Source: a candidate division WOR-3 bacterium UBA3073
Lineage (GTDB): Bacteria > Hydrothermota > UBA3073
Assembly: GCA_002366725.1 (NCBI GenBank)
Contig: DFBT01000095.1
Coordinates: forward strand, 4,910-68,909
DNA: 64,000 bases
Direction of reading: 5' to 3'
Shown in pieces: positions 50,911 through 63,196 of this stretch (the stretch's first letter is position 1; each line of letters opens with the position of its first letter). The notes under the pieces are model-generated. The model saw only the letters and a program-made list of their open reading frames with translations. It ran no database searches and was not told the DNA's origin. The translations under genes and the position numbers were made by a program.

Positions 50911-51100
50911 TAACAAAAAAGAGGACACCTGTCATTGCGAGTGAACGAAGTGAACGTGGCAATCTTATCTTTAATATCCCTTATTGCACTCTGTAACGAA
51001 TTCTGTGCAATAAATCCTCTATTGAAATGAAACTTGTTGACATCCAATATAGATAGCTTTGACGAAATCGCAATACTTTGGGACATTCCCCAAAATTAAA

Positions 51101-51141
51101 CCTGCCTGCCGCCTGCCTACCGCAGGCAGGCGGCAGGCAGG
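51101..51141. repeat. Double/nested palindrome CCTGCCTGCCGCCTGCCTACCGCAGGCAGGCGGCAGGCAGG
   Basis: Downstream of the lplA-like gene. Confidence 0.85.
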
Positions 51142-51448
51142 TGCGGTTAATTCTACATAACGGCGACTCATTTTTTATTTGACATTTTGAAAAAAATGTA
51201 GTATAATACAACAGAAGGCAACTTGATTGGTACTGGATATTTTTTCTCTTAAATTTTCTTCAGATCTCTTAAGTTCTCTGTTGATGAAAAGCTTTAAATT
51301 AACAGGGATGGAACGAGAAATGTATGAGATTAAAAAAAAGATAAAAATTCTCTTTCAATCTCTTAAGTTCCCTGTTAAAAAGGAAGTAATCTCTTAAATC
51401 TCTGTTGTTAACTGATAAACTTCAATCAATCTTTTAATCTCTGTGCTC

Positions 51449-51468
51449 CCTGCCTGCCGGCAGGCAGG
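51449..51468. repeat. 20-bp perfect palindrome CCTGCCTGCCGGCAGGCAGG
   Basis: ~50 nt upstream of fabG. Confidence 0.85.
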
Positions 51469-51516
51469 TCTGTGGTTAGATTTTTGACAATGCCTGATGC
51501 TGAATGAGGAGGATAT

Positions 51517-52233
51517 ATGGCGGAGAAGATAAGTATTGTAACGGGGGGTGCGAGGGGGATAGGGAAGACGATAGCTGCCTCGTTGAAGGAGCAAGGAAGC
51601 GGGGTATTTATATGGGATGTGAGCGAGGAGGGAGAGAAGACCGCGGATGAACTCGGAGTAAAATTTGTGAAAGTGGATATATCCAGTTACGAAGATGTGA
51701 ATAAAAATGTGAAGGCTTTATTGGAGGATGTTGGTAAAATCGATGTATTGATCAACAATGCGGGCATAACGAGGGATAATTTACTTTTGAGAATGAGTGA
51801 GGAAGAGTTTGACTCCGTGATACGGGTCAATCTCAAGGGGACATTCAACACCACACATGCGGTGCTTCGCTCCATGATGAAAAATAGATGGGGGAGGATA
51901 GTGAATATTTCCTCCGTCATCGGGATTATAGGCAACAGGGGGCAGGCAAACTATGCCGCATCGAAGTCGGGAATTATAGGATTTACAAAATCGGTGGCAA
52001 AAGAGGTCGCCACTCGGGGAATTACCGTAAACGCAATTGCGCCCGGATTTATAGAAACCGAAATGACGGAGAGGCTTTCGGATGAGGTGAAGACGGCATA
52101 TCTGAAATCCATCCCGATGAGGAGGTCTGGCAGCCCGGACGATGTTGCAAATCTCGTCCTCTTCCTCGTTTCTGACTCCGCCTCGTATATAACCGGTCAG
52201 GTTATACATGTGGACGGAGGAATGCTAATGTGA
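51517..52233 (+). CDS. fabG: 3-oxoacyl-[acyl-carrier-protein] reductase (SDR)
   Basis: 'IVTGGARGIGKTIA', 'NAG', catalytic 'YAASKSGIIGFTKSVAKE', 238 aa. Confidence 0.9.
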   Translation: MAEKISIVTGGARGIGKTIAASLKEQGSGVFIWDVSEEGEKTADELGVKFVKVDISSYEDVNKNVKALLEDVGKIDVLINNAGITRDNLLLRMSEEEFDSVIRVNLKGTFNTTHAVLRSMMKNRWGRIVNISSVIGIIGNRGQANYAASKSGIIGFTKSVAKEVATRGITVNAIAPGFIETEMTERLSDEVKTAYLKSIPMRRSGSPDDVANLVLFLVSDSASYITGQVIHVDGGMLM

Positions 52234-52306
52234 GCCGGCGTAGCTCAGATGGAAGAGCACCTGACTGTGGATCAGGGTGTCATGGGTTCAAGTCCCGTCG
52301 CCGGTA
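52234..52306 (+). tRNA. tRNA-His (anticodon GTG)
   Basis: Hand-folded cloverleaf: acceptor GCCGGCG/CGCCGGT (G1-U72), D-arm GCTC-AGATGGAA-GAGC, anticodon stem CCTGA/TCAGG with loop CTGTGGA, T-arm ATGGG-TTCAAGT-CCCGT, discriminator A; no encoded G-1 or CCA; starts right after fabG stop. Confidence 0.7.
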
Positions 52307-52316
52307 TATACCCCAA

Positions 52317-52356
52317 TATCCCTCGGATGCAGACTGCATTCCGAGGGATATTTTAT
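52317..52356 (+). terminator. Rho-independent terminator hairpin after tRNA-His
   Basis: 'ATCCCTCGGAtgcagactgcaTTCCGAGGGAT' stem followed by ATTTTATTC. Confidence 0.6.
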
Positions 52357-52376
52357 TCAAAATTTAGCCCGTCTAC

Positions 52377-52396
52377 CCTGCCTGACGGCAGGCAGG
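52377..52396. repeat. Palindrome variant CCTGCCTGACGGCAGGCAGG
   Basis: Downstream of tRNA-His and its terminator. Confidence 0.85.
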
Positions 52397-52725
52397 CGAT
52401 ATGTAGAAAAGTATGTTTAAATCTGCCCTGCGTGTCTCTTGTGGGGTATGCAAGTTGAGAAATGGGTATGGAGTGCATTACCTTGTCCATATCCATCTTA
52501 AGATCCGTATGGATACGGATCTCATACGAGTCCGCGACCTATGGACGGACTCTGTGAGGTAATGCAAAATAGCGGGGCAAATGTAACGCTAGGCTTCAGC
52601 CTTACCAATGAAGCGATACCGTTTGGAATGAAATGTAGTTTGGTTGGGCGCTGTCTTCGGTGAGCCTTCGGCGAGCTCAGCCGAGCCGCTCAGCCGAACC
52701 GTTTACAGTGCCAATAATTTTTTTC

Positions 52726-52754
52726 TTGACAATGCGCACTTTTTGATGTATAAT
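52726..52754 (+). promoter_or_regulatory. Consensus sigma70 promoter of mazEF (TTGACA-17-TATAAT)
   Basis: Perfect -35/-10 hexamers with 17-nt spacer, 20 nt upstream of AGGAGGTGA RBS. Confidence 0.6.
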
Positions 52755-52774
52755 TTATACAGGAGGTGATAAGC

Positions 52775-52996
52775 ATGAAGAGACTTAATATTACTTTGCC
52801 AGAAGATCTGGCTCAGGAGTTAGAAGCAATCTCCAATAAGAGTCGCTTTATTGCTGAGGCGGTGAAAGAGAGGTTGGAAAGAATCAGGAGAGAAAAACTG
52901 GACAAACTTTTAGTCGAGGGGTATAAAGCAACTTGTAGAGAAGACAGGGAAGTTGATAAAGAGTGGGAGGAGATTACACTTGAATCATGGAAGTGA
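52775..52996 (+). CDS. mazE: MazE/CopG-type ribbon-helix-helix antitoxin
   Basis: 'KRLNITLPEDLAQELE...SRFIAEAVKERLER' RHH; ATG 8 nt after AGGAGG; 10-nt overlap with toxin gene. Confidence 0.7.
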   Translation: MKRLNITLPEDLAQELEAISNKSRFIAEAVKERLERIRREKLDKLLVEGYKATCREDREVDKEWEEITLESWK

Positions 52997-53343
52997 ACTT
53001 TCCAAAAAGAGGAGAAATTTGGCTTGTCTCTTTAGAGCCTGTAGTTGGTACTGAGATAGGTAAAGCAAAACCGGCTATAGTGATCTCAAATGATAGAAAT
53101 AACCAATTTGCAGCTACAGTAACTGTAATTCCCATTACTTCAAAAACAGAGAGGATACATCCGTTTGAAGTCTTCCTCCCTGCAGAAAAGACGGGATTAG
53201 CCAGGGATTCTAAGGCAAAGTGCAATCAGATTCGGACGATTGATAAAAAGAGATTGGTTAAATCGCTGGGAGCATTGTCTTTAAATAAAGTGCGAGAGAC
53301 AGAAAAAGCTCTTCTCATTCATCTTGGTATAAAAGTTAGTTAA
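52987..53343 (+). CDS. mazF: MazF/PemK-family endoribonuclease toxin
   Basis: 'RGEIWLVSLEPVVGTEIGKAKPAIVISND...TVIPITS' PemK/MazF signature; 118 aa. Confidence 0.8.
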   Translation: MEVNFPKRGEIWLVSLEPVVGTEIGKAKPAIVISNDRNNQFAATVTVIPITSKTERIHPFEVFLPAEKTGLARDSKAKCNQIRTIDKKRLVKSLGALSLNKVRETEKALLIHLGIKVS

Positions 53344-53391
53344 GGGGATTACGGGGTCGTTAAAACAAAAATTACATTTTTATTTCTTTTC

Positions 53392-53490
53392 TTGACTTTT
53401 TATGAAATTGACTGTATAATATAGAAAGAGGATAGTTGGCAGCAAGAAGCTGAAATTTAAAATTAAAGACCTGACCCCATTTACCAACTG
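53392..53490 (+). promoter_or_regulatory. Promoter (TTGACT-17-TATAAT) plus ~65-nt conserved leader, copy 1 (upstream of AlbA_2 gene)
   Basis: Leader 'agaaagaggatagttggcagcaagaagctgaaatttaaaattaaagacctgacccca' about 90% identical to 55271-55335. Confidence 0.55.
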
Positions 53491-53531
53491 GAGGAGGGGA
53501 ACGCCAGATTAACGAAGGAGATTTTTGGTTA

Positions 53532-55022
53532 ATGGCACTACCGTTAAATATCGATAAGTTGATCAACGGTTCAGTTATGGAGTGGGAACGCCTTGAATTC
53601 AAGAAGGGATGGAATCCTGAAGATGTTATTCACGCCATTTGTGCGTTTGCCAACGATATCCATAACTGGGGCGGTGGGTATGTCATTCTGGGAGTTGAGG
53701 AAAGGAATGGCAGACCTGTTTTACCACCAAGTGGGTTAGAGCCCAATCAACTGGATAAAATTCAAAATGAACTCATTGGTCTTTTTCATAAACTGGACCC
53801 CTACTATTTGCCGGTGGTTCAACCAGAGATTTATCAGGATAAACATATTTTGATCCTCTGGGTATATGGCGGCGATGAGCGTCCCTATAAAGCACCGATG
53901 TCACTTGGTGATAGAAGCTCTAAAGCAATTTACATCAGACGAGGTTCTCAAACATGCAAAGCCAATCAAACAGAAGAACGACAACTGCGGGAAATCGCTG
54001 TCAGAATTCCTTTTGATGATAGAATAAATCATCACGCAGATGTTAAAGATTTAAATCTTGCCAATATTCAGGCGTTTCTGAAAGAGGTAGAGAGCGATTT
54101 ATATGAAGAGTCAACACAAATTCCTTTTACCGAATTGTGTGAACAAATGAAGATTGTCCAAGGGCCAACAGAATATTTGAGACCGGTTAATATTGGCTTG
54201 CTGATGTTCAGCGATCATCCTGAAGAATACTTTGTTGGGGCAGGAATCGATGTAGTGATCTACCAAGATGAAATCGGCGACCATTTTACAGAAAAAACCT
54301 TCACAGGACCGATTCACCAGCAATTGCGCGATGCATTGCATTATGTAAAGACAACCGTCATTAGAGAGGAAGTTCAAAAGGTTCCTGGACAGGCAGAAGT
54401 GTTGCGATTTTACAATTATCCCTACGAAGCCGTAGAAGAAGCACTTGCTAATGCCGTATACCACCGCGGTTATGAACATCAGAATCGAATTGAAGTAAAT
54501 GTTCGTCTGGATTGCATAGAAATTTTGAGTTATCCCGGTCCCCTCCCCCCGGTGGACGCCAAAGCACTGAAAAAGAGACGAATCGTAGCACGGAATTACC
54601 GAAATCGGCGTATCGGCGATTTTTTGAAGGAACTGGACCTGACGGAAGGCAGGGCTACTGGCTTCCCAAAAATCTATAAGGCAATGGGAGTCAACCGCTC
54701 ACCGCCGCCGGAGTTTACTACCGACTCGGACAGAAACTATTTCTTGACCGTTTTGAAGAAACATCCGTTGTCCCAAGTAGTGTCCCAAGAGCTGTCCCAA
54801 GTTGAAGAAGGATTAAGTGAACAAGCTATAAAGATTCTTGGGTTCTGTAGGATAGCAAGGAAAAGACAGGAGATACTGGTCTATATTGGTTTGTCAAATC
54901 ATCCTGATAACTACAAACGCCATATTAAACCTCTTATAGAAAGTGGTAAATTGGAGCTGACGATACCTGACAAACCAAAACATCGAAATCAGAAGTATCG
55001 AACACGAAAGAGGAACATATAA
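53532..55022 (+). CDS. AlbA_2 (Schlafen-like divergent AAA_4) + HATPase_c_4 + C-terminal wHTH putative nucleic-acid-binding regulator
   Basis: N-term '[41 protein letters not shown]' AlbA_2 signature; central ATPase-like region; C-terminal HTH; 496 aa. Confidence 0.7.
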
Positions 55023-55026
55023 GAAA

Positions 55027-55070
55027 ACGTATAAGAATGCGTATAAGAATGCGTATAAGAAAGCGATATA
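55027..55070. repeat. 12-bp tandem (GCGTATAAGAAT)x~3.5
   Basis: Immediately after AlbA_2 gene stop. Confidence 0.8.
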
Positions 55071-55240
55071 AAAAATGAACCTAAAATATGGACACTATCC
55101 ACGATACAACACCTATAAGGATTCTGGCATTGAGTGGCTGGGGGAGATTCCGGCGCATTAGGAGATAGAAAGATTGAAAAATTTATTAGTCCAAACAAAA
55201 GAAATAGTGTCAGTTCTGCGTAACGCCCGTTGACTTTTCC

Positions 55241-55335
55241 CTTGATATCTTATGAAATAAGTTGTATAATACAGAAAGAGGGTGCTTGGCTGTAAGAAGC
55301 TGAAATTTAAAATTAAAGACCCGACCCCAATTATC
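55241..55335 (+). promoter_or_regulatory. Promoter-leader element, copy 2 (TTGATA-18-TATAAT + conserved leader)
   Basis: Near-identical to 53392-53490; followed by a start-less ferredoxin-like reading frame. Confidence 0.5.
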
Positions 55336-55351
55336 CTACACTGAAAAATGC

Positions 55352-55497
55352 AAGGGTTGTACAAGATGCGAGAGGGTCTGTCCAACTGGAGCAATAAGTG
55401 GAGAACCCAAGAAGGTCTATAAAATTGACCTTGAAAAATGCACAAAATGCGGATTCTGTAAAGATTCCTGCAAGTTTGATGCGATAAAGGTGGAATA
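55352..55497 (+). pseudogene. 2x[4Fe-4S] ferredoxin-like coding remnant lacking an in-frame start codon
   Basis: Translation 'KCKGCTRCERVCPTGAISGEPKKVYKIDLEKCTKCGFCKDSCKFDAIKVE*' has two CxxCxxCxxxC(P) clusters; the frame opens only after a TAA inside the conserved leader and holds no ATG/GTG/TTG. Confidence 0.5.
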
Positions 55498-55563
55498 AAA
55501 AATTCAAATGACAAAAAATACGCTGTTTTGCCAACTATGTCAACTACTTGATGTTAACAAGGT

Positions 55564-55779
55564 TTGCTAAGGGACGAAGTCAACATATTATGGTTACTTT
55601 TGTTGACTTTGTTGACTTGTTCGAGTATACAAATTGAGACTGTAGAGGATATAAAGAAACAAGACTGGGAGGTTCGTTTTGGTGCAGATAAGGTAAATGG
55701 GCAAATAATGATTATCTATATAGATATTTTTGGCAATGAGAAGAGGGAAGTAAAAAGACTAAAGGATTTTAAAAAGTAG
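55564..55779 (+). CDS. Small hypothetical protein (TTG start; hydrophobic N-terminal segment)
   Basis: 71-aa ORF ending 5 nt before the next gene; 'ILWLLLLTLLTCSS' signal/lipobox-like segment; surrounded by GTTGAC/GTCAAC repeats. Confidence 0.3.
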   Translation: MLRDEVNILWLLLLTLLTCSSIQIETVEDIKKQDWEVRFGADKVNGQIMIIYIDIFGNEKREVKRLKDFKK

Positions 55780-55783
55780 AGAT

Positions 55784-56698
55784 ATGAATAGAAAAAAAAT
55801 TTACAATTTAGAATTCCCAAGTTATTGTGAAAAACTTAATATTGGAGGACATGTTTTTAAGAGGGTTAAAGATTATGAAAAGCAAGTAAAAAGTCTTCAA
55901 CATTTGACCACTGTTCTCTCTGAATACTCAATTAGCGCTAATACCGGATCGCATAATATTACTGCCTTTGTAGAGCTCCCTATTAAAGAGAAGAAAGCGG
56001 TTTTCCCTTGGGATAAAAATAATGCTACAGCATTGAATGACATTTTAGTGCTTTTATCAATTTTTACAGGGCGAGATGTGTTTTTGGATGAACCTTTGGA
56101 CAAGCCATCTGCGATCATTGCAGACCCGCGGAAATACCAATGGGGCGGATCTTTAAGGTGCTCGATACCTTACAAGGAGACAAAGAAAGATCAAGATTTA
56201 GGGTACAACATAGGATTTGAAGAAGGATTAAATAAGATTTATTCACTAATAAGAACTGACCAATGGTTAAAGAAGTATCAAGATGGATACTTTTTGCTTT
56301 TACTTAAGCATGCAGAAAAAAGACAGATTTTAGAGACTGCCTTTGTTTTGCATTGGACAATCTTGGAACATCTTTTCACCTTGCACAACAGAAAGTGGCT
56401 TTCAGATGAACAGATACGGAAGTTACCTTCAGCGGAAAAAATATCTTTTCTTCTTGTTGAATACGCTCTAAGCTCAGAGATTACCAAACCCAATAAAAAA
56501 AGGATTTCAGAGTTAGCAGGAGTCAGAAATAGACTGGTACATTTTGGCAAATTCCTTGATGCCAGGGCTGAGAAAAATGCAGAGCTAGTTATAAGACTTA
56601 CAGAATTTATTGTTGCTAAAATATTAGGCCTTTTGCCTTCAAATGTATTTAATACGATTGAGAGGTTGGAACAGTTTTTCAATAGCAGTTCTAAATAG
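55784..56698 (+). CDS. Hypothetical protein with C-terminal HEPN-like Rx4H motif (candidate Abi/RNase-type defense protein)
   Basis: 304 aa; 'ELAGVRNRLVHFGKF' matches the HEPN Rx4-6H signature; AT-rich, in island. Confidence 0.45.
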   Translation: MNRKKIYNLEFPSYCEKLNIGGHVFKRVKDYEKQVKSLQHLTTVLSEYSISANTGSHNITAFVELPIKEKKAVFPWDKNNATALNDILVLLSIFTGRDVFLDEPLDKPSAIIADPRKYQWGGSLRCSIPYKETKKDQDLGYNIGFEEGLNKIYSLIRTDQWLKKYQDGYFLLLLKHAEKRQILETAFVLHWTILEHLFTLHNRKWLSDEQIRKLPSAEKISFLLVEYALSSEITKPNKKRISELAGVRNRLVHFGKFLDARAEKNAELVIRLTEFIVAKILGLLPSNVFNTIERLEQFFNSSSK

Positions 56699-56795
56699 TC
56701 ATGATCGATAAAAAAGTGTTCAAAAATCGAGATCTTGTCCTTAGGGTTTCTCCAAATATTGACCCTGATAACGGCGGGTATTGGAAGGTATTATA

Positions 56796-59700
56796 ATGAA
56801 TTCAGATTTAACATTTATCACTAACGAAAAAGAGAGAACCCTTCTTGAAAGGTTTAAGGTACTTATCAAGGACGCATCTCTGTTTGATGTTCTGGTTGGA
56901 TACTTTTATACAAGTGGTTTTTATGCATTATACAAATCATTAGAGTCCACAGAAAAAATCAGGATTCTAATAGGGATGGGGACAGGTAAAGAAACTATAA
57001 GACTTATTCAAAAGGCAAAAGGCGAAGAGCAATTAACCCTCCAATTCTCACATGCTGTGGTGAAACAAGAGTTTGGAAACTCTGTTACGGAAGAGATGGA
57101 ACAATCAGAGGATAGCGCTAATGTTGAAGAGGGAGTTTTCAAATTTATTGAATGGCTAAAAAATGGGAAACTAAAAATAAGAGCCTATCCCAGCAGGGAC
57201 ATTCATGCAAAGCTCTATATTATGACCTTCACAGAAGGCGATAGAGATACAGGGAGGGTTATCACTGGTTCAAGTAACTTTACCCGGGCTGGGCTTATAG
57301 ATAATTTGGAGTTTAATGTAGAACTAAAGAACAGATCTGATTATGAATTCGCTCTTGAGAAGTTTAATGAACTCTGGGAGAACTCTGTTGATATATCCGA
57401 CAAATATGTTGAAACCATTAATTCCAGGACCTGGCTGAACAATACAATAACCCCTTACGAGTTGTATCTAAAGTATCTATACGAATATTTGAGAGAGAAA
57501 ATAAATATTGATCAGGAGAAGGTAATTGGTCGTTATCGTCCGCGTGATTTTATGGACCTGGAGTATCAAAGGGAAGCAGTACAAGATACCAAGAGTAAGT
57601 TAAAAGAATACGGCGGTGTATTTCTATCAGATGTAGTGGGTCTGGGAAAGACCTATATTTCCGCCATGCTCGCACAAGAATTGAGCGGGCGCAATCTAAT
57701 CATTTGCCCACCCGTGCTAAAGGAATACTGGCAGGATACTTTTACTGGTTTCAATCTTCAAGCCACTGTAGAATCCTTGGGTAAATTGGATCAACTTGCC
57801 AAAAAAGGCACTGAAGACTATGAGAATATCTTTATTGACGAGGCACATCGTTTTCGCAATGAATCCAACCAGACATACGAGAAATTAAAAGAAATCTGCT
57901 GGGGCAAAAAGATTATTCTGGTATCAGCCACTCCTCAAAATAACACTCCAATAGACCTTCTAAGTCAGATAAAGTTATTCCAGAAGGGGCACAAAAGCAC
58001 CATCCCTGGTTTACAGGACATAGAAAGATATTTTAACTCGCTACAGAAAAAATTAAAGGGTATAGATCGCCAATCTGATTTTGCGAAATATATCTCTATA
58101 ATCAAAGAGAATTCTAAAGCAATTAGAGAAAATGTTCTAAAAGATTTAATGGTTAGAAGAACCAGAGGTGATGTAGAAAAATATTTTTCACAGGACTTGA
58201 AAAATGAGAAACTGAAATTTCCAACAATTAGAGACCCTGAGAAAGTATATTACGAGTTTGACGAAGAAACAGACCGCACCTTTAACAAAACTATAGAAAA
58301 GATAAAAGGATTTCAATATTTTCGCTATACGCCGATATTGTATCTTAAAAATCCCAAGCCAGAAGAAAAAGAGGAATTGGTTGGACAGCGCAACTTAAGA
58401 CGCTTTATGAAAATTCTTTTGGTAAAACGTCTTGAAAGCAGTTTTTTTGCCTTCAAGAAAACCTTAAATAGATTTATCTCTTCATACGAAAGGTTTATTA
58501 AGATGTTTGAAGGTGGGACAGTTTATATAAGCAAAAAGTATACACATAGAATATTTGAACTTCTTAATAACGATGATGAAGATGAAATAATGAGATTGGT
58601 AGAAGAAGAAAAAATAAGGCAGTATAAAATTGATGAATTTAAGGATGGTTATGTTGACAATTTAAGGCGTGATTTAAGGGTTCTTAGAGAGATAGAATCT
58701 CTGTGGAAGAACATAACAGCAGACCCTAAAATTGAGAAATTTAAGGAAATATTGGAAAGCGACAAAATATTAAAAGGAAAAAAGATTATTGTATTCACGG
58801 AATCAAGAGAAACCGCAGAATATCTGGAACAGAATTTGAAGAGTACATATAAAGACGCTGTGATGTCTTATTCCAGTCAATCAAGTGCTCGTATTCAAGA
58901 TAAAGTAATTGAAAACTACGACCCAAAGTGTAAATATCCAAAAGATGATATAAGTCTCTTGATTTCTACTGAGATTCTCTCTGAAGGTGTTAATCTACAC
59001 CGTTCTAATGTGGTTGTGAATTATGACCTTCCCTGGAACCCAACCCGAGTAATACAAAGGGTAGGTCGTATAAATAGAGTGGATACTACATTTAATGATA
59101 TTTATATCTACAATTTTTTCCCAACAAAGCAATCAAATGATGTGATGAAATTAGAAGAAGCTGCTATCGGAAAGCTTCAGTCATTTCACGATATGTTAGG
59201 AGAGGATGCGGCTTATCTGACTGATGGTGAGGAAGTTGGTTCCCACGAGCTATTTAATAGGGTGAATTCTAAAAGGGTTATTGGGGGTGAAGATGAGGAG
59301 TTAGGGGACTCAGAACTTGAGTATTTGATGGAAATCAGGGCTGTTCGCGACAAGAATCCAGATTTATTTGAAAAAATTAAATATTTACCTAAAAAGGCAC
59401 GAAGCGCCAAAAAATATCCAGTAGAAGAAGATGCGGTTTTGACTTTCTTTAGAAAGGGTAGTTTGAGAAAGGTATTCATAACCGACAGTAAGTCAACAAG
59501 GGAATTAGATTTTTTCCTGACAGCCAATATCTTAAAATCAGTACCAGAAGAAAAAAGAGAAAAACCCGGTAAAAAATTCTATGGTTATCTTGATAACAAC
59601 AAAGAAGAATTTAGGCTGGCTACACTTGAAGAAATTATAGAACCCAAACAAAAAGGCGGCAGAAGCAGTGAGGCAAAACTAAAGGGTATAATCAAGGCAA

Positions 59701-59963
59701 TCCAAAAAACAAAGGGTTTTACAGAAGATGATGATAAGTATCTCAAAAAAGTGCTCAATCTTTTAGAAGAAGGGATCCTGCCAAAGCAAACCAGTAAAAC
59801 CATAATGAAAAACATTGGAAAAGAGATGAACCCCTTGAAAATACTTAGCATAATAAGAAAACATACTCCGGATAGCCTTTTTGCAGTTCCAGTAACAGAT
59901 AGAACCAGTCATACTTCTGGGCCGAGAGAGGTAATTCTTTCGGAATATTTAATTGGTGAATAG
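56796..59963 (+). CDS. PLD-family nuclease domain fused to SNF2-family (SF2) helicase
   Basis: N-term 'DIHAKLYIMTF...GRVITGSSNFT' (HxK...GSxN); helicase motifs 'VVGLGKTYIS' (I), 'IFIDEAHRFRN' (II, DEAH), 'LVSATPQNN' (III), 'QRVGRINR' (VI); start at ATG 56796 after GGAAGG. Confidence 0.8.
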   Translation: MNSDLTFITNEKERTLLERFKVLIKDASLFDVLVGYFYTSGFYALYKSLESTEKIRILIGMGTGKETIRLIQKAKGEEQLTLQFSHAVVKQEFGNSVTEEMEQSEDSANVEEGVFKFIEWLKNGKLKIRAYPSRDIHAKLYIMTFTEGDRDTGRVITGSSNFTRAGLIDNLEFNVELKNRSDYEFALEKFNELWENSVDISDKYVETINSRTWLNNTITPYELYLKYLYEYLREKINIDQEKVIGRYRPRDFMDLEYQREAVQDTKSKLKEYGGVFLSDVVGLGKTYISAMLAQELSGRNLIICPPVLKEYWQDTFTGFNLQATVESLGKLDQLAKKGTEDYENIFIDEAHRFRNESNQTYEKLKEICWGKKIILVSATPQNNTPIDLLSQIKLFQKGHKSTIPGLQDIERYFNSLQKKLKGIDRQSDFAKYISIIKENSKAIRENVLKDLMVRRTRGDVEKYFSQDLKNEKLKFPTIRDPEKVYYEFDEETDRTFNKTIEKIKGFQYFRYTPILYLKNPKPEEKEELVGQRNLRRFMKILLVKRLESSFFAFKKTLNRFISSYERFIKMFEGGTVYISKKYTHRIFELLNNDDEDEIMRLVEEEKIRQYKIDEFKDGYVDNLRRDLRVLREIESLWKNITADPKIEKFKEILESDKILKGKKIIVFTESRETAEYLEQNLKSTYKDAVMSYSSQSSARIQDKVIENYDPKCKYPKDDISLLISTEILSEGVNLHRSNVVVNYDLPWNPTRVIQRVGRINRVDTTFNDIYIYNFFPTKQSNDVMKLEEAAIGKLQSFHDMLGEDAAYLTDGEEVGSHELFNRVNSKRVIGGEDEELGDSELEYLMEIRAVRDKNPDLFEKIKYLPKKARSAKKYPVEEDAVLTFFRKGSLRKVFITDSKSTRELDFFLTANILKSVPEEKREKPGKKFYGYLDNNKEEFRLATLEEIIEPKQKGGRSSEAKLKGIIKAIQKTKGFTEDDDKYLKKVLNLLEEGILPKQTSKTIMKNIGKEMNPLKILSIIRKHTPDSLFAVPVTDRTSHTSGPREVILSEYLIGE

Positions 59964-59965
59964 CT

Positions 59966-62900
59966 ATGGATAAACAAGACGCAATAAAAATTATTAGAGA
60001 TACTTTTGAAAGACCTTTTGACAGAAGGTGTTTTACTTATTTTGTAAAGAATCTGCTTAACAATATAGAATCTGAAGACAAACATCCTTATAGCGGCAAA
60101 TACATTCCCGATGCTTATAAACCTTTCATTAGCACACTCAAGCGCATTGGCAAATATAAGGACTCTGACGATAATAAAATAGATATTCTTATTGTTCATC
60201 TTAAAAAACCAATATCACTTGAACGGGCACGGACAATGCAGAGAAATTTCATTGCATGGTATCTCAAAGGCAGTCGTGGAGATATATTAAAAGATGCGGC
60301 TTTGGTCGCGTATGTTTCACCTGATCAGGAGGACTGGCGATTTTCTCTAGTTAAAATGGAATACAAACTTACCCAGACTAAAACTGGCAGGGTAAAGGCA
60401 AAAGAAGAATTAACCCCGGCCCGCAGATATTCTTTCTTAGTAGGAAAAAATGAACCAAATCATACCGCAAAACAACAACTCGTTCCACTCCTGCAGGATG
60501 ACAAAAATAATCCTACCTTGACTCAATTAGAAGATGCGTTCAGTATAGAAAAGGTCACTAAAGAATTCTTTGAAAAGTATCGGAACTTGTTGTTTGGGGA
60601 CAAAGGAATCAAAGAAGTTCTGGATAAAATTGTTAAAAAAGATTTGGCTATTCAAAAAGATTTTAATGACAAAGGCGTTGATACTGTTAATTTCCCCAAG
60701 AAACTTTTAGGTCAGATTATTTTTCTCTATTTTTTGCAAAAGAAAGGTTGGATGGGCGTACCATCAAATAAGTCTTGGGGTGAAGGCGACAAAAGTTTTT
60801 TACGAACTCTGTTTATTAGGAGTAAAAATGAACATAAAAATTTTTTCAATGATTATTTAGAGATTTTGTTTTACAATACATTAAACAATCCTCGTCAGAC
60901 TGAAGTTGACCCCAGTTATTCCAGAGATTTTGATTGCAGAATCCCATTTTTAAATGGTGGTCTTTTTGAACCAATACAGGGTTATGATTGGCAATATACG
61001 GATATTCTTCTGCCTAATGAGTTATTCTCCAACCAAATTAGAACAAAAGAAGGTGATATAGGCACTGGGATTTTAGATGTCTTTGATAGATATAACTTCA
61101 CTGTTAAAGAAGATGAGCCGTTAGAAAAAGAGGTAGCTATTGATCCGGAAATGCTTGGGAAAGTTTTTGAAAATCTTCTAAAGGTTAAGGATAGAAAATC
61201 TAAGGGTTCTTATTATACCCCCCGTGGGATTGTCCACTATATGTGTCAGGAGAGTTTGATAAATTATCTGGACACAGAAATAAATGTTGAACAAAAGCCT
61301 TTAATTAAGGGAAAAGGCATTCAAACAAAACTTTTGGGTGAACAAGCACCTATACAGAAAAGTCTAACTGCTCCCAGATATTTAACTGTAGTCTCTAAAG
61401 AAAATATTGAAAATCTTATTCGCTACGGTGATTTGGCTATTGAACATGACATAGCCAAAGAAGAAGGCACGAAAACCTATAGACACAAATTGCCTGAAAG
61501 TATCCGGCAAAATGTCAAGCTGATTGACGAAAAATTGGCAAATATCAGAATATGCGACCCTGCCATCGGCTCAGGTGCTTTCCCTGTTGGAATGATGACA
61601 GAGATCGTTAGGGCAAGAAATGTCCTCACAACTTACCTACCTGACGAAAGCAAGAAAGACAGAAAGATTTATAATTTCAAACGTCATTGCATACAAAACT
61701 GTCTTTACGGTGTAGATATTGATCCGGGAGCGGTAGAAATAGCCAAACTCCGTCTGTGGTTATCCCTTATTGTTGATGAAGAGGATATAAAACAGATTAA
61801 GCCTTTGCCGAATTTGGATTATAAGATAATCTGCGGTAATTCACTCTTGAGAGTAGAGAAAAGTTTTTTTAATTTGAAGGCATTTACAAAACTTGAAAAA
61901 CTTAAACCATTATTTTTTGAGGAGACTATTTCACGCAAAAAGCAAGGATATAAACAACAAATTGATGAATTGATAAAGGAAATTACAAATAATGATGAGC
62001 ATTTTGATTTTGAGGTTTATTTTTCAGAAGTCTTTCATGAAAAAAAAGGGTTTGATGTAGTGATTGCCAATCCACCGTATATAAGTTTTGGATTGAGAGG
62101 ATCTGACAAAGCTAAAAAAGATTGGGATGCTTATGTTAGAAAGAGCTATCCAAACTCCGCAGAATATAAATTAAGCACTTATGCTATATTTATAGATAAG
62201 GGGATCCAACTACTTAGAGACAAAGGAAACATATGCTATATTACACCTGATAGCTACCTATTAGGACGATATTTTTCAAAATTAAGGAATTACATTTTAA
62301 ATTCAACCTCTATAAAACAAATATTAATGTTTGAAACTGATTTTTGGCGAGAAGGAGTGATTGGTAGACCAACGATTACTCTAATGCAAAAAAATCAAAA
62401 GAAAGGATTATGCGAGATTGAACTATTTAAAAATTTAGAAAATTTTGAAAGAGGTTTTTGCCTAAGAAACTCATATTCGCAAGAATATTTTAATAATAAT
62501 AAATATAAGCGTTTTAAACTACTTTTTAGTAATAGAGCAAAAAGACTTGTAGAAATTGTTGAAGCTGATTCAATATCACTTGGGGATGTAGCAAAAATTA
62601 CCACTGGCGTAAGGTCGAAAATTGGACAGAAGAAAATTATAGCAGATAGACAGGCAGAAAAAAATTGGAAGAAAGGTATAATTTCCAGTGCCCAAGTTTA
62701 TCCATACATAGTCAAATGGAGGGGACATTATCTAAATATTGATAAAAAACTGTTATGGGCAGGTGGATGGGATTCAAATATAGTAGAAAATCCAAAGATA
62801 ATGATTAGACAAACTAGTGATTCATTAATTGCAGGAATTGATATGGAAGGGTTTTATCATCTTAACAATGTGCATTCTTTAAGCATCCTAAAGGAGAACA

Positions 62901-63196
62901 TATCTCTTGAGTATATTTGTGCCGTGTTAAATTCGAAACTAATGAATAAATTTTATCAACTTGTTAGTCTTGAAAGAAGCAGAACAATGGCTCAAACTGA
63001 TATTGATGTATTAGAAACATTACCTATCAAAATGATAGAAATGAAAGCCCAAAAAAAGATTATAGAATTGGTACACCAAATTATTCATAATGGCTTACTA
63101 AATCAAATCTTAGAAGAAATTGAAAATTTGATATGTGAGATATACAAATTGCCAGCAGAAATGAAAAAATATGTCATGGAAGATAATTTATATTAA
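59966..63196 (+). CDS. Large gamma-class N6-adenine DNA methyltransferase (Eco57I/type IIG / BREX PglX / DISARM DrmMI-like) with N-terminal extension and C-terminal TRD-like region
   Basis: Motif X 'GSYYTPRGIVHYM', motif I 'DPAIGSGAFPVGM', motif IV 'VIANPPY'; 1076 aa; 2-nt gap from upstream helicase gene. Confidence 0.8.
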   Translation: MDKQDAIKIIRDTFERPFDRRCFTYFVKNLLNNIESEDKHPYSGKYIPDAYKPFISTLKRIGKYKDSDDNKIDILIVHLKKPISLERARTMQRNFIAWYLKGSRGDILKDAALVAYVSPDQEDWRFSLVKMEYKLTQTKTGRVKAKEELTPARRYSFLVGKNEPNHTAKQQLVPLLQDDKNNPTLTQLEDAFSIEKVTKEFFEKYRNLLFGDKGIKEVLDKIVKKDLAIQKDFNDKGVDTVNFPKKLLGQIIFLYFLQKKGWMGVPSNKSWGEGDKSFLRTLFIRSKNEHKNFFNDYLEILFYNTLNNPRQTEVDPSYSRDFDCRIPFLNGGLFEPIQGYDWQYTDILLPNELFSNQIRTKEGDIGTGILDVFDRYNFTVKEDEPLEKEVAIDPEMLGKVFENLLKVKDRKSKGSYYTPRGIVHYMCQESLINYLDTEINVEQKPLIKGKGIQTKLLGEQAPIQKSLTAPRYLTVVSKENIENLIRYGDLAIEHDIAKEEGTKTYRHKLPESIRQNVKLIDEKLANIRICDPAIGSGAFPVGMMTEIVRARNVLTTYLPDESKKDRKIYNFKRHCIQNCLYGVDIDPGAVEIAKLRLWLSLIVDEEDIKQIKPLPNLDYKIICGNSLLRVEKSFFNLKAFTKLEKLKPLFFEETISRKKQGYKQQIDELIKEITNNDEHFDFEVYFSEVFHEKKGFDVVIANPPYISFGLRGSDKAKKDWDAYVRKSYPNSAEYKLSTYAIFIDKGIQLLRDKGNICYITPDSYLLGRYFSKLRNYILNSTSIKQILMFETDFWREGVIGRPTITLMQKNQKKGLCEIELFKNLENFERGFCLRNSYSQEYFNNNKYKRFKLLFSNRAKRLVEIVEADSISLGDVAKITTGVRSKIGQKKIIADRQAEKNWKKGIISSAQVYPYIVKWRGHYLNIDKKLLWAGGWDSNIVENPKIMIRQTSDSLIAGIDMEGFYHLNNVHSLSILKENISLEYICAVLNSKLMNKFYQLVSLERSRTMAQTDIDVLETLPIKMIEMKAQKKIIELVHQIIHNGLLNQILEEIENLICEIYKLPAEMKKYVMEDNLY

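What the first reader, a model, noticed from the sequence alone, without database searches (positions are those of the whole stretch)
55564..56698. Tightly coupled small ORF + 304-aa protein with HEPN-like Rx4H motif, just upstream of the helicase/MTase module
The 304-aa ORF has no family I recognise but carries 'ELAGVRNRLVHFGKF' near its C-terminus. That is a canonical HEPN Rx4-6H (RNxxxH) RNase signature, as found in Abi, HepT and Cas13-type HEPN domains. A 71-aa ORF ends 5 nt upstream (TTG start, hydrophobic N-segment), which suggests translational coupling. The upstream spacer holds repeated GTTGAC/GTCAAC hexamers (tgtcaactac..gttaac..gaagtcaacat..ttgttgactttgttgacttg) that look like operator repeats. 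It may be an abortive-infection-type effector, or an accessory component of the adjacent system.
Basis: partly seen in the sequence, partly recalled or inferred. Interest (0 to 1): 0.55.

Follow-up and report, generated by a model that had tools for sequence, protein, structure and literature searches.

The report
Stand-alone HEPN RNase defence gene cassette
The 304-residue gene encodes a member of a small, uncharacterised, horizontally scattered protein family that joins a unique N-terminal domain to a HEPN-type RNA-cutting domain, most likely a self-contained anti-phage "suicide" nuclease; the small ORF in front of it is a leftover piece of a dead methyltransferase gene, not a partner.

Summary

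The family is rare, about 230 clusters among 1.84 billion representatives. It keeps one architecture and is spread across many phyla.

The 71-aa ORF is not a partner. Its last 45 residues are the C-terminal tail of a type III Mod methyltransferase. Its first part is encoded by a 71-nt segment that carries the GTTGAC repeats. No homologue of it lies in any of 48 related loci, and in the closest relative the tail is frameshifted.

The adjacent PLD-SNF2/methylase module is not a conserved neighbour. In sister contigs a Schlafen/AlbA gene replaces the HEPN gene between the same flanks. The only recurrent neighbour, in 5 of 32 loci, is a type IIG restriction enzyme.

Verdict: a new variant of a known kind, of moderate interest.

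The parts
55784..56698 (+). 304-aa two-domain protein. It is 100% identical to 'hypothetical protein CH333_00120' of candidate division WOR-3 bacterium JGI_Cruoil_03_44_89.
   Evidence: ORF and identity. The AlphaFold model has pLDDT 89.1 and pTM 0.88. The family alignment A1 has 58% mean column identity.
55784..56278 (+). N-terminal alpha/beta domain (aa 1-165), specific to this family. Predicted sensor or regulatory domain (inference). Invariant residues: N8, F11, F25, Y31, G55, T60, D86, R97, D114, R116, G144, W161.
56279..56695 (+). C-terminal HEPN domain (aa 166-304). Helices: 183-202 (H1, WTIxEHLF), 216-226 (H2), 235-254 (H3), 260-280 (H4), plus an extra helix at 291-303.
56525..56542 (+). 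Codons for R248-N-R-L-V-H253, the Rx4H catalytic signature at the end of helix 3.
   Evidence: R and H are invariant in 120/120 homologues, and N follows R in 119/120. The position matches the published definition, 'end of helix-3 and beginning of the loop to helix-4' (PMC3710099).
55564..55779 (+). 71-aa ORF (TTG start). It is a chimeric relic, not a conserved gene.
   Evidence: Full-length homologues occur only in near-identical sister contigs, and the other hits cover only the last ~45 residues. The ORF is not called on the Logan copy of the same contig. tblastn finds no homologue in 48 related loci.
55645..55779 (+). Relic of the 3' end of a type III Mod-like (N6_N4_Mtase) methyltransferase gene. 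The HEPN gene starts where res would start.
   Evidence: Residues 29-69 of the ORF align to residues 598-638 of the 653-aa Curtobacterium plasmid Mod (41% identity, E 1e-10). P0124 aligns to residues 540-638 (E 4e-20). That mod gene is followed by a ResIII gene. In L009 the same stretch carries 1-nt and 10-nt deletions and TAG has become CAG.
55574..55644 (.). 71-nt segment with GTCAAC/GTTGAC repeats. It holds an imperfect inverted repeat (ACGAAGTCAACA / TGTTGACTTTGT, 15-nt loop) and a 9-nt tandem (GTTGACTTT GTTGACTTG). It is a junction or possible promoter-operator module.
   Evidence: Repeats are. The segment is 97% identical over 71 nt in L051, about 45 nt upstream of a type IIG RM gene with unrelated flanks. 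Sister loci L052/L053/L056 lack one 9-nt copy. The RNA hairpin is not significant, z -1.49.
55753..56706 (+). Swappable cassette: the last codons of the relic plus the HEPN gene. It is replaced by a 466-aa SLFN_AlbA_2 gene in L052/L053/L056.
   Evidence: blastn shows window 55431-55752 and 56707-56923 conserved at 92-94% in those loci, with different content between.
56781..59963 (+). PLD(HKD)-SNF2 helicase gene. It is a neighbour and not a conserved partner of the HEPN family.
   Evidence: Pfam hits are PLDc_2, SNF2-rel_dom and Helicase_C. The PADLOC hit is C3a139 'HKD+Snf2' at 9.8e-43. It is absent from the other loci.
59966..63196 (+). Type IIG-like RE/MTase gene (Eco57I + TaqI_C). It is a neighbour.
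   Evidence: The PADLOC hit is PDLC03596 at 2.8e-255.
52234..52306 (+). tRNA-His gene at the left edge of the island that holds the feature.
   Evidence: Found by ARAGORN and Rfam. GC is 0.43 upstream and falls to 0.32-0.36 from 55023 onward.

Best explanation
The 304-aa gene encodes a self-contained, horizontally mobile HEPN ribonuclease effector. It belongs to a previously uncharacterised two-domain family.

Shown:
- The C-terminal domain (aa 166-304) has the HEPN four-helix fold, with an invariant R-N-x3-H at the end of helix 3.
- The N-terminal 165 residues form a family-specific alpha/beta domain that packs against the HEPN domain.
- The family has one fixed architecture and no conserved partner gene.
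- It is scattered over many phyla.
- In this window the gene is a swappable cassette in a low-GC defence island beside tRNA-His.

Inferred mechanism, by analogy with single-protein HEPN defence nucleases such as ApeA and DARNA:
- The protein dimerises through the HEPN domains to form a composite, metal-independent RNase site.
- It is held inactive until the N-terminal domain senses an infection-derived cue.
- It then cleaves cellular RNA, most likely tRNA anticodon loops or mRNA, and stops growth (abortive infection).

The 71-aa ORF in front is a relic. It joins a 71-nt repeat-bearing junction segment to the 3' end of a dead type III mod gene. At most it supplies transcription or translation signals to the HEPN gene.
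For: HEPN domain:
- R248 and H253 are invariant in 120/120 homologues and in alignment A1.
- In the AF2 model (pLDDT 89, pTM 0.88) the motif sits at the end of helix 235-254, before helix 260-280. This matches the published HEPN definition.
- 35/49 members hit Pfam HEPN_Swt1, 19 hit HEPN_Apea, 8 hit Cthe_2314 and 6 hit RiboL-PSP.
- UniRef names two members 'Apea-like HEPN domain-containing protein'.

Stand-alone and mobile:
- 40 genome loci span Chloroflexota, Planctomycetota, Verrucomicrobiota, Patescibacteria, Omnitrophota, Firmicutes, Actinomycetes and an Aenigmatarchaeota MAG at 83% identity.
- Neighbours vary and are often housekeeping genes.
- Only 228 hits were found in 1.84 billion representatives. 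All are two-domain proteins or fragments of them.

Cassette behaviour: the gene is replaced by SLFN_AlbA_2 between conserved flanks.

Island: tRNA-His, a MazEF-like pair, SLFN_AlbA_2, PLD-SNF2 and a type IIG MTase, and a GC drop.

Relic status of the small ORF.

Precedent for the mechanism: ApeA and DARNA.
Against: - No hit to any HEPN Pfam model reaches its gathering score. The window protein scores 20 bits against a cutoff of 27.5.
- RNase activity, dimerisation, toxicity and anti-phage activity are all untested.
- Nothing is known about what the N-terminal domain binds.
- Several homologues sit among housekeeping genes, so a defence role rests on patchy distribution and analogy.
- A subset of five loci is tightly linked to a type IIG enzyme. 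This argues that at least some members do not act alone.
Confidence: 0.6

Rival explanations
1. Guard or back-up effector tied to restriction-modification enzymes, in the PrrC/EcoprrI manner. A neighbouring R-M enzyme keeps the HEPN protein latent or otherwise works with it. The neighbour is type IIG in Chloroflexota. Here it would be the PLD-SNF2 plus type IIG-like MTase module, or formerly the type III system whose mod relic remains. The HEPN protein fires when a phage disables restriction.
For: - In L010, L021, L022, L027 and L030 the HEPN gene starts 6-16 nt after a full-length type IIG RE-MTase (PADLOC PDLC03610; Pfam Type_ISP_C + N6_Mtase).
- The pairing survives discordant divergence. 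For L010/L022 the type IIG proteins are 92% identical but the HEPN proteins only 58%. For L027/L030 the HEPN proteins are 98% identical but the type IIG proteins only 67%. This suggests selection for the linkage.
- Other loci have an MmeI-type enzyme (L020), an SNF2 helicase (L029), a ResIII gene (L012) or a type I HsdR-like gene (L009) nearby.
- In the window the gene sits exactly where res would follow a type III mod relic, and it lies upstream of a helicase/MTase pair.
- HEPN genes embedded in R-M operons are a described theme (PMC3710099).
Against: - Only 5 of 32 surveyed loci have the tight type IIG link.
- Most loci have no R-M gene among their immediate neighbours.
- The R-M types differ between loci, and the window's MTase is unrelated to the Chloroflexota type IIG enzymes.
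- The PLD-SNF2 module is not found with the family elsewhere.
- Sister contigs keep the flanks but swap the HEPN gene for SLFN_AlbA_2 and have RadC downstream.
- Defence genes cluster in islands anyway.
Confidence: 0.22
2. Two-gene toxin-antitoxin or translationally coupled pair. The 71-aa protein is an antitoxin, chaperone or membrane partner of the HEPN toxin.
For: - There is a 4-nt gap between the two ORFs.
- The frame of the small ORF is intact in the window and in sister contigs.
- Some pipelines called it as a gene (P0121, P0123; L050).
Against: - tblastn finds no homologue of it in any of 48 loci that carry the HEPN family.
- Its C-terminal two-thirds are the tail of a type III Mod methyltransferase.
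- The same tail precedes unrelated genes elsewhere: SLFN_AlbA_2 in L052/L053 and SMC_N/AAA_23 in L051.
- In L009, next to the 83%-identical HEPN gene, the tail is frameshifted by 1-nt and 10-nt deletions and has lost its stop codon.
- Its N-terminal part is encoded by a repeat element that is also found upstream of another gene.
Confidence: 0.04
3. Non-defence HEPN protein, either a housekeeping or stress-response RNA-processing enzyme or a catalytically silent nucleotide- or RNA-binding protein.
For: - Several homologues lie among metabolic genes, for example urease, luciferase-like and polysaccharide genes.
- Some HEPN domains are non-catalytic binders (PMC3710099).
Against: - The full catalytic signature R-N-x3-H is invariant.
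- The distribution is extremely patchy across phyla, including 83-85% identity between a WOR-3 bacterium and an archaeal MAG.
- The family is rare.
- The gene lies in a low-GC island and behaves as a cassette.
Confidence: 0.12

Closest known systems
ApeA (HEPN_Apea, PF18739): single-protein abortive-infection tRNA anticodon nuclease
   Same: - Single gene with no partner.
- N-terminal region without known homologues joined to a C-terminal HEPN domain with Rx4H.
- Found in defence islands and near R-M genes.
- 19/49 family members give weak hits to the HEPN_Apea model, and UniRef names two members 'Apea-like HEPN'.
- The proposed logic, ligand or cue sensing by non-catalytic domains that unlocks the RNase, is taken from ApeA.
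   Different: - ApeA proteins are about 580 aa with helical N-terminal and Mid domains and a split HEPN domain with insertions. This protein is 304 aa with an alpha/beta N-terminal domain and a compact HEPN domain.
- The window protein has no HEPN_Apea hit at E<=1.
- The family profile does not reach ApeA-sized proteins.
PrrC/EcoprrI and RloC: HEPN anticodon nucleases embedded in R-M loci
   Same: The HEPN RNase is encoded inside or next to restriction-modification genes (PMC3710099). The tight type IIG-HEPN operons and the position after a type III mod relic recall this arrangement.
   Different: - PrrC and RloC carry an N-terminal ABC-type ATPase. This family has an unrelated 165-aa alpha/beta domain.
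- The R-M link is seen in only a minority of loci.
- No evidence of masking by an R-M protein was obtained.
HepT-MNT (HEPN toxin / nucleotidyltransferase antitoxin) modules
   Different: - There is no MNT gene or any conserved adjacent antitoxin.
- An extra N-terminal domain is present.
- Sequence similarity is not detectable.
Abi2/Swt1-clade HEPN proteins (AbiD/AbiF, bacterial Swt1-like)
   Same: This is the best Pfam signal: HEPN_Swt1 hits 35/49 members and aa 201-276 of the window protein. The clade is often embedded in R-M operons.
   Different: - All hits are below the gathering score (20 bits against 27.5).
- No AbiD/F-type N-terminal region is present.
- PADLOC Abi models do not hit.
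DARNA (PD-T7-3)
   Same: A single-protein HEPN tRNase that is activated on infection.
   Different: DARNA has an N-terminal HEPN domain and a helical C-terminal ssDNA-binding domain, and is 456 aa. The domain order is the opposite.

Membership tests
HEPN superfamily | Four-helix up-down bundle made of two alpha-hairpins | tested here: met
HEPN superfamily | [quoted passage not shown] | tested here: met
   R248-N249-R-L-V-H253 lies at the C-terminal end of helix 235-254. The definition is from PMC3710099.
HEPN superfamily | Conservation of the R/H pair across homologues | tested here: met
   R and H are present in 120/120 homologues, and N follows R in 119/120. Both are invariant columns in A1.
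HEPN superfamily | Metal-independent endoribonuclease activity that leaves 2',3'-cyclic phosphate ends | not testable with these tools
   This needs biochemistry.
Pfam HEPN_Apea (PF18739) / ApeA defence system | Match to the family model at or above the gathering score | tested here: not met
   The window protein has no hit at E<=1. 19/49 homologues have weak hits, the best at E 1.1e-4. For P0141 the score is 20 bits against a cutoff of 24.4.
Pfam HEPN_Apea (PF18739) / ApeA defence system | ApeA architecture: about 580 aa with helical N-terminal and Mid domains and a split HEPN domain with insertions | tested here: not met
   The protein is 304 aa with an alpha/beta N-terminal domain of 165 aa.
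Pfam HEPN_Swt1 (PF18731) | Match to the family model at or above the gathering score | tested here: not met
   The score is 20 bits (E 9e-4) against a cutoff of 27.5. 35/49 members have weak hits, the best at E 3.6e-5.
HepT-MNT or other type II toxin-antitoxin pair | A conserved adjacent antitoxin gene | tested here: not met
   No neighbour is conserved in 48 loci. The 71-aa ORF is a mod-gene relic.
Component of the adjacent PLD-SNF2 + MTase system (DISARM-like / 'HKD+Snf2' candidate) | Co-occurrence of the gene with the helicase and methylase genes in other genomes | tested here: not met
   tblastn gives one weak SNF2 hit (L029) and one weak MTase hit (L014) in 48 loci. The cassette is swapped for SLFN_AlbA_2 between the same flanks.
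R-M-embedded HEPN guard (PrrC-like logic) | Operonic linkage to a restriction-modification enzyme | tested here: inconclusive
   The link is tight (6-16 nt) to a type IIG enzyme in 5 of 32 loci and is retained through discordant divergence. It is absent from most other loci.
R-M-embedded HEPN guard (PrrC-like logic) | N-terminal ABC-type ATPase, as in PrrC and RloC | tested here: not met
   No ATPase domain is found. The N-terminal domain has no Pfam, NCBIfam or PADLOC hit and no structural match.

The most novel reading that the evidence does not exclude
The family is a new kind of restriction-enzyme guard. Its unique N-terminal domain would dock on, or monitor, a type IIG-like restriction-modification enzyme. 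Here that could be the helicase/methylase module, and formerly the type III system whose mod relic remains. The HEPN RNase would be released when a phage anti-restriction factor disables that enzyme. This would be a compact, ATPase-free analogue of PrrC/EcoprrI. The repeat-bearing 71-nt segment plus the mod tail would act as a shared 'landing pad' that lets different suicide effectors (HEPN, Schlafen/AlbA, SMC-like ATPase) be exchanged behind the same expression signals.
Probability: 0.15. Interest if true: 0.65.

Novelty: new variant of a known kind. Interest (0 to 1): 0.36.

Why it matters
Single-protein HEPN nucleases such as ApeA, DARNA and HepS are now being shown to sense quite different infection cues through their non-catalytic domains.

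This family adds a compact 300-aa example. Its sensor-like domain has no sequence or structural relative, and no database describes it: it reaches no Pfam threshold and has no NCBIfam match and only weak, non-specific PADLOC hits. If it is active, it offers a small and tractable system for asking what an unknown domain senses.

The recurring type IIG-HEPN operons give a testable case of coupling between restriction and RNA-level suicide.

The locus also shows in detail how defence cassettes are exchanged between conserved flanks, and how a dead mod gene's 3' end persists in front of them.

None of this overturns current views. HEPN genes in defence islands and near R-M genes have been an established theme since 2013.

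Tried and rejected
- Sequence search of the PDB with the protein and with the family profile gave only spurious hits: a designed TPR protein and a C39 peptidase-like protein.
- Foldseek against the PDB found nothing at E<0.7. The afdb50 library was unavailable.
- NCBIfam gave no hit for the 304-aa protein. PADLOC gave only weak CARF_HEPN hits.
- Rfam found nothing but tRNA-His in 51000-57500.
- An RNA hairpin in the GTTGAC segment has z -1.49, which is not significant.
- I considered whether the GTTGAC segment is a widespread mobile element. An exact 19-mer scan of metagenome contigs gave 5 loci. Four are chance matches with no flanking similarity. One (L056) is another copy of the sister locus. 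The idea is rejected as a general repeat family. Only L051 shows the segment in a second context.
- No direct repeat of the tRNA-His 3' end (an att site) was found inside the window.
- I considered reading the 71-aa ORF as a lipoprotein or PepSY-like secreted protein, because of 'LLTLLTC'. I rejected this once its two halves were traced to a repeat element and a mod tail.
- The terminator scan found no terminator between 54900 and 56900.
- A literature search for HEPN together with type IIG found no paper describing such a pair.
Full report
**1. The observation**

The window contains a TTG-initiated 71-codon ORF at 55564-55779 and an ATG-initiated 304-codon ORF at 55784-56698, both on the + strand and 4 nt apart. 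The peptide ELAGVRNRLVHFGKF is present, with R248 encoded at 56525-56527 and H253 at 56540-56542.

On its own the motif says little. R-x4-H turns up in 34% of shuffles of this protein, and the stricter R[NDH]x3H in 4.8%.

The GTTGAC/GTCAAC hexamers are real. The window as a whole has exactly the chance number, 22 against 22 expected. Four of them fall within 78 nt (55539-55616), which is very unlikely by chance even after allowing for a 9-nt tandem duplication. Three of those four lie inside the 71-aa ORF and encode its 'hydrophobic N-segment' (LLLLTLLTC).

**2. The 304-aa protein**

Family membership:
- The protein is identical to 'hypothetical protein CH333_00120' of a candidate division WOR-3 bacterium. 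It has 319 word-sharing homologues of about 300-330 aa, most of them 50-60% identical.
- UniRef calls two of them 'Apea-like HEPN domain-containing protein'.
- R and H of the motif are present in all 120 listed homologues, and N follows R in 119.
- In a 49-sequence alignment R248, H253 and G255 are invariant. So are W191, E195, N202 and K219 in the C-terminal half and a set of residues in the N-terminal half.

Database matches:
- The window protein gives only a sub-threshold Pfam hit, HEPN_Swt1 at E 9e-4 and 20 bits against a cutoff of 27.5, over aa 201-276.
- Across the family the weak hits fall consistently on HEPN models: Swt1 in 35/49 members, Apea in 19, Cthe_2314 in 8 and RiboL-PSP in 6.

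Structure:
- An AlphaFold model built on the alignment is confident, with pLDDT 89 and pTM 0.88.
- It shows an alpha/beta N-terminal domain (aa 1-165) packed against a helical C-terminal domain.
- The RNRLVH motif sits at the end of helix 235-254, just before the loop to helix 260-280. That is where the HEPN signature lies according to the defining survey, 'end of helix-3 and beginning of the loop to helix-4', with a polar residue after R (PMC3710099).
- Foldseek and sequence searches of the PDB find nothing significant.

I regard the HEPN assignment as well supported (about 0.9). Catalytic competence is likely but untested.

**3. The N-terminal domain and the extent of the family**

A full HMMER profile search of 1.84 billion representative proteins finds only 228 proteins at E<=1e-3. 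Essentially all are two-domain proteins of about 300-340 aa or fragments of them.

The family is therefore rare and compact and has one fixed architecture. The profile does not bridge to other HEPN families or to other proteins that carry the N-terminal domain.

**4. The 71-aa ORF**

Homologues of the small ORF fall into two classes:
- Near-identical copies from sister contigs.
- Many 41-102-aa fragments that match only its last ~45 residues. JGI labels two of these 'adenine-specific DNA-methyltransferase'.

tblastn of one such fragment hits the extreme 3' end of a 653-aa 'site-specific DNA-methyltransferase' (Pfam N6_N4_Mtase) on a Curtobacterium plasmid. That gene is followed by a ResIII/DEAD-box gene, so it is a type III mod-res pair. 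Residues 29-69 of the window ORF align to residues 598-638 of that Mod protein at 41% identity and E 1e-10. A longer fragment aligns to residues 540-638 at E 4e-20.

So 55645-55779 is the relic of a mod gene's 3' end, and the HEPN gene begins where res would begin.

The rest of the ORF is encoded by a 71-nt segment (55574-55644) that carries the repeats. The same segment occurs at 97% identity in another contig (L051), about 45 nt upstream of a type IIG RM gene, with unrelated sequence on both sides.

Further evidence against a functional small gene:
- In the closest relative of the HEPN gene (L009, 85% DNA identity over 55645-56768), the mod tail has 1-nt and 10-nt deletions and its stop codon is gone.
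- tblastn finds no copy of the small ORF in any of 48 loci that carry the HEPN family.
- The gene caller used for the Logan copy of this contig does not call it.

The ORF is a chimeric relic. The tight spacing is inherited from the old mod-res junction.

**5. Genomic context here**

- A tRNA-His gene lies at 52234-52306.
- It is followed by a MazE/MazF-like pair, a SLFN_AlbA_2/HATPase_c_4 gene, a frameshifted ferredoxin-like ORF, the 71-nt segment, the mod relic and the HEPN gene.
- Next come a PLD-SNF2 helicase (PADLOC 'HKD+Snf2'), a type IIG-like RE/MTase and a further 298-aa gene that runs past the window end.
- GC is 0.43 upstream and 0.32-0.36 from about 55023 onward.

This is a defence island.

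Sister contigs (L052, L053, L056) share window 55431-55752 and 56707-56923 at 92-94% identity. Between those flanks they carry a 466-aa SLFN_AlbA_2 gene instead of the HEPN gene, and RadC rather than the helicase follows. In L051 the mod tail precedes an SMC_N/AAA_23 gene.

The HEPN gene is thus one of several interchangeable cassettes, and it is not tied to the helicase/MTase module.

**6. Context elsewhere**

Forty genome loci carry the family. They come from Chloroflexota, Planctomycetota, Verrucomicrobiota, Patescibacteria, Omnitrophota, Ignavibacteriales, Actinomycetes, Firmicutes, Pseudomonadota, Bipolaricaulota and an Aenigmatarchaeota MAG at 83% identity.

Neighbours are mostly unrelated from locus to locus and include plain metabolic genes.

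There is one exception. In five loci (L010, L021, L022, L027, L030) the HEPN gene starts 6-16 nt after a full-length type IIG restriction-methylase. This pairing persists although the two genes diverge discordantly:
- For L010 and L022 the type IIG proteins are 92% identical and the HEPN proteins 58%.
- For L027 and L030 the HEPN proteins are 98% identical and the type IIG proteins 67%.

Other loci have an MmeI-type enzyme, an SNF2 helicase, a ResIII gene or a type I HsdR-like gene nearby. So there is a real but minority association with restriction systems, in line with the long-known tendency of HEPN genes to sit in R-M operons.

**7. Mechanism**

Most likely (0.6): a stand-alone HEPN RNase effector. 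It dimerises through the HEPN domain, is held off by its own N-terminal domain, and is switched on by an infection cue to cut cellular RNA and abort infection.
- The fold, motif, conservation, mobility and cassette behaviour are shown.
- Dimerisation, autoinhibition, the trigger and the RNA target are inferred by analogy with ApeA (a tRNA anticodon nuclease activated by deoxydinucleotides) and DARNA.

Main rival (0.22): a PrrC-like guard coupled to a restriction enzyme.

Minor rivals: a toxin-antitoxin pair with the 71-aa ORF (0.04) and a non-defence HEPN protein (0.12).

**8. Comparison with known families and novelty**

The protein belongs to the HEPN superfamily, since the defining features tested here are met. 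It fails membership of the following:
- ApeA: no model hit for the window protein, half the size, and a different N-terminal fold.
- HEPN_Swt1: below threshold.
- HepT-MNT: no antitoxin.
- PrrC/RloC: no ATPase.

It works like the single-protein HEPN defence nucleases but is a separate, undescribed family. I rate it a new variant of a known kind.

Interest is moderate (0.36). A specialist would not be surprised to find another HEPN family in a defence island. The orphan sensor-like domain and the type IIG-HEPN operons are worth an experiment.

The repeats remain unexplained in function. They form an imperfect inverted repeat plus a 9-nt tandem in a segment shared by two different defence-gene upstream regions. 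This is compatible with a promoter/operator or a recombination joint. The RNA hairpin is not significant.

Noticed in passing
window 55282-55497 (+), promoter-like site at 55242-55270: A small 2x[4Fe-4S] ferredoxin-like ORF (…KCKGCTRCERVCPTGAI…KCTKCGFCKDSCKFDAIKVE*) is broken. A GTG-initiated 20-codon frame (MLGCKKLKFKIKDPTPIILH*) stops at 55344, and the ferredoxin part continues in the +1 frame with no start codon of its own. The break is beside an A5 run. It is preceded by the best sigma-70-like match in the region (TTGATA-17-TATAAT, 11/12). It could be a pseudogene, an assembly error or a programmed frameshift.
   Followed up: partly
window 55018-55065: Four head-to-tail copies of a 12-nt unit (TATAAGAA[A/T][A/G]CG) straddle the stop codon of the SLFN_AlbA_2/HATPase_c_4 gene at 55020-55022. 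Their function is unknown.
   Followed up: no
L052 1-1916, L053 1-1989, L056 7522-9482, compared with window 55431-56923: This is a cassette exchange. The same flanks (92-94% identity) hold a 466-aa SLFN_AlbA_2 gene in place of the HEPN gene. Remnants of the first ~70 codons of the PLD-SNF2 gene lie upstream of a RadC gene in L051 and L052.
   Followed up: partly
proteins P0126 and P0137; L051 14923-15225: Mini-ORFs join the N-terminus typical of Mod-type methyltransferases (…LSEAEIEFIARCLKEGEPLPDSY…) directly to the same C-terminal tail (…IYIDIFGNEKREVK.LKDFKK). Mod genes of this kind seem to be repeatedly gutted by internal deletion while keeping both ends, often in front of another defence gene.
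   Followed up: no
L010 4864-8945, L021 2288-6484, L022 4864-9008, L027 4820-8954, L030 4889-8954: These are two-gene type IIG RE-MTase + HEPN operons in Dehalococcoidia/Chloroflexia MAGs, with gaps of 6-16 nt. The two genes show discordant divergence: type IIG 92% with HEPN 58% in one pair, and HEPN 98% with type IIG 67% in another.
   Followed up: partly
L009 7192-8915: In a MAG labelled Aenigmatarchaeota, the 83%-identical HEPN gene lies behind a type I HsdR-like gene and a second, different HEPN-like gene (213 aa, …IRKIRNIFAHH…, weak Abi_2 hit). This is either cross-domain transfer or a binning error. In Pelolinea (L015) the downstream neighbour is a DUF4145 HEPN protein.
   Followed up: no
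window 56781-63196 and beyond 63214: A PLD(HKD)-SNF2 helicase (1060 aa), a type IIG-like RE/MTase (1076 aa) and a 298-aa gene with no Pfam hit that runs off the window look like a three-gene defence module. It matches the PADLOC candidate 'HKD+Snf2' and has DrmD-like and PglX/DrmMI-like similarities.
   Followed up: partly
window 52234-55022: tRNA-His is followed by a MazE/PemK-MazF-like pair (52766-53343) and a 496-aa SLFN_AlbA_2 + HATPase_c_4 + Fic-like_C protein. This is the left part of the island, and its GC is still genome-like at 0.42.
   Followed up: no
one immediate neighbour among the 64 scanned (alignment A4): One HEPN-family locus has an RtcB tRNA-splicing ligase as its immediate neighbour. 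RtcB seals 2',3'-cyclic-phosphate RNA ends of the kind HEPN nucleases make. This is a single occurrence, and the locus was not identified.
   Followed up: no
protein P0141 (565 aa): This is the only clear architectural variant in the family. A 246-aa N-terminal extension with no Pfam hit precedes the two-domain unit. It could be a fusion or a gene-calling artefact.
   Followed up: no
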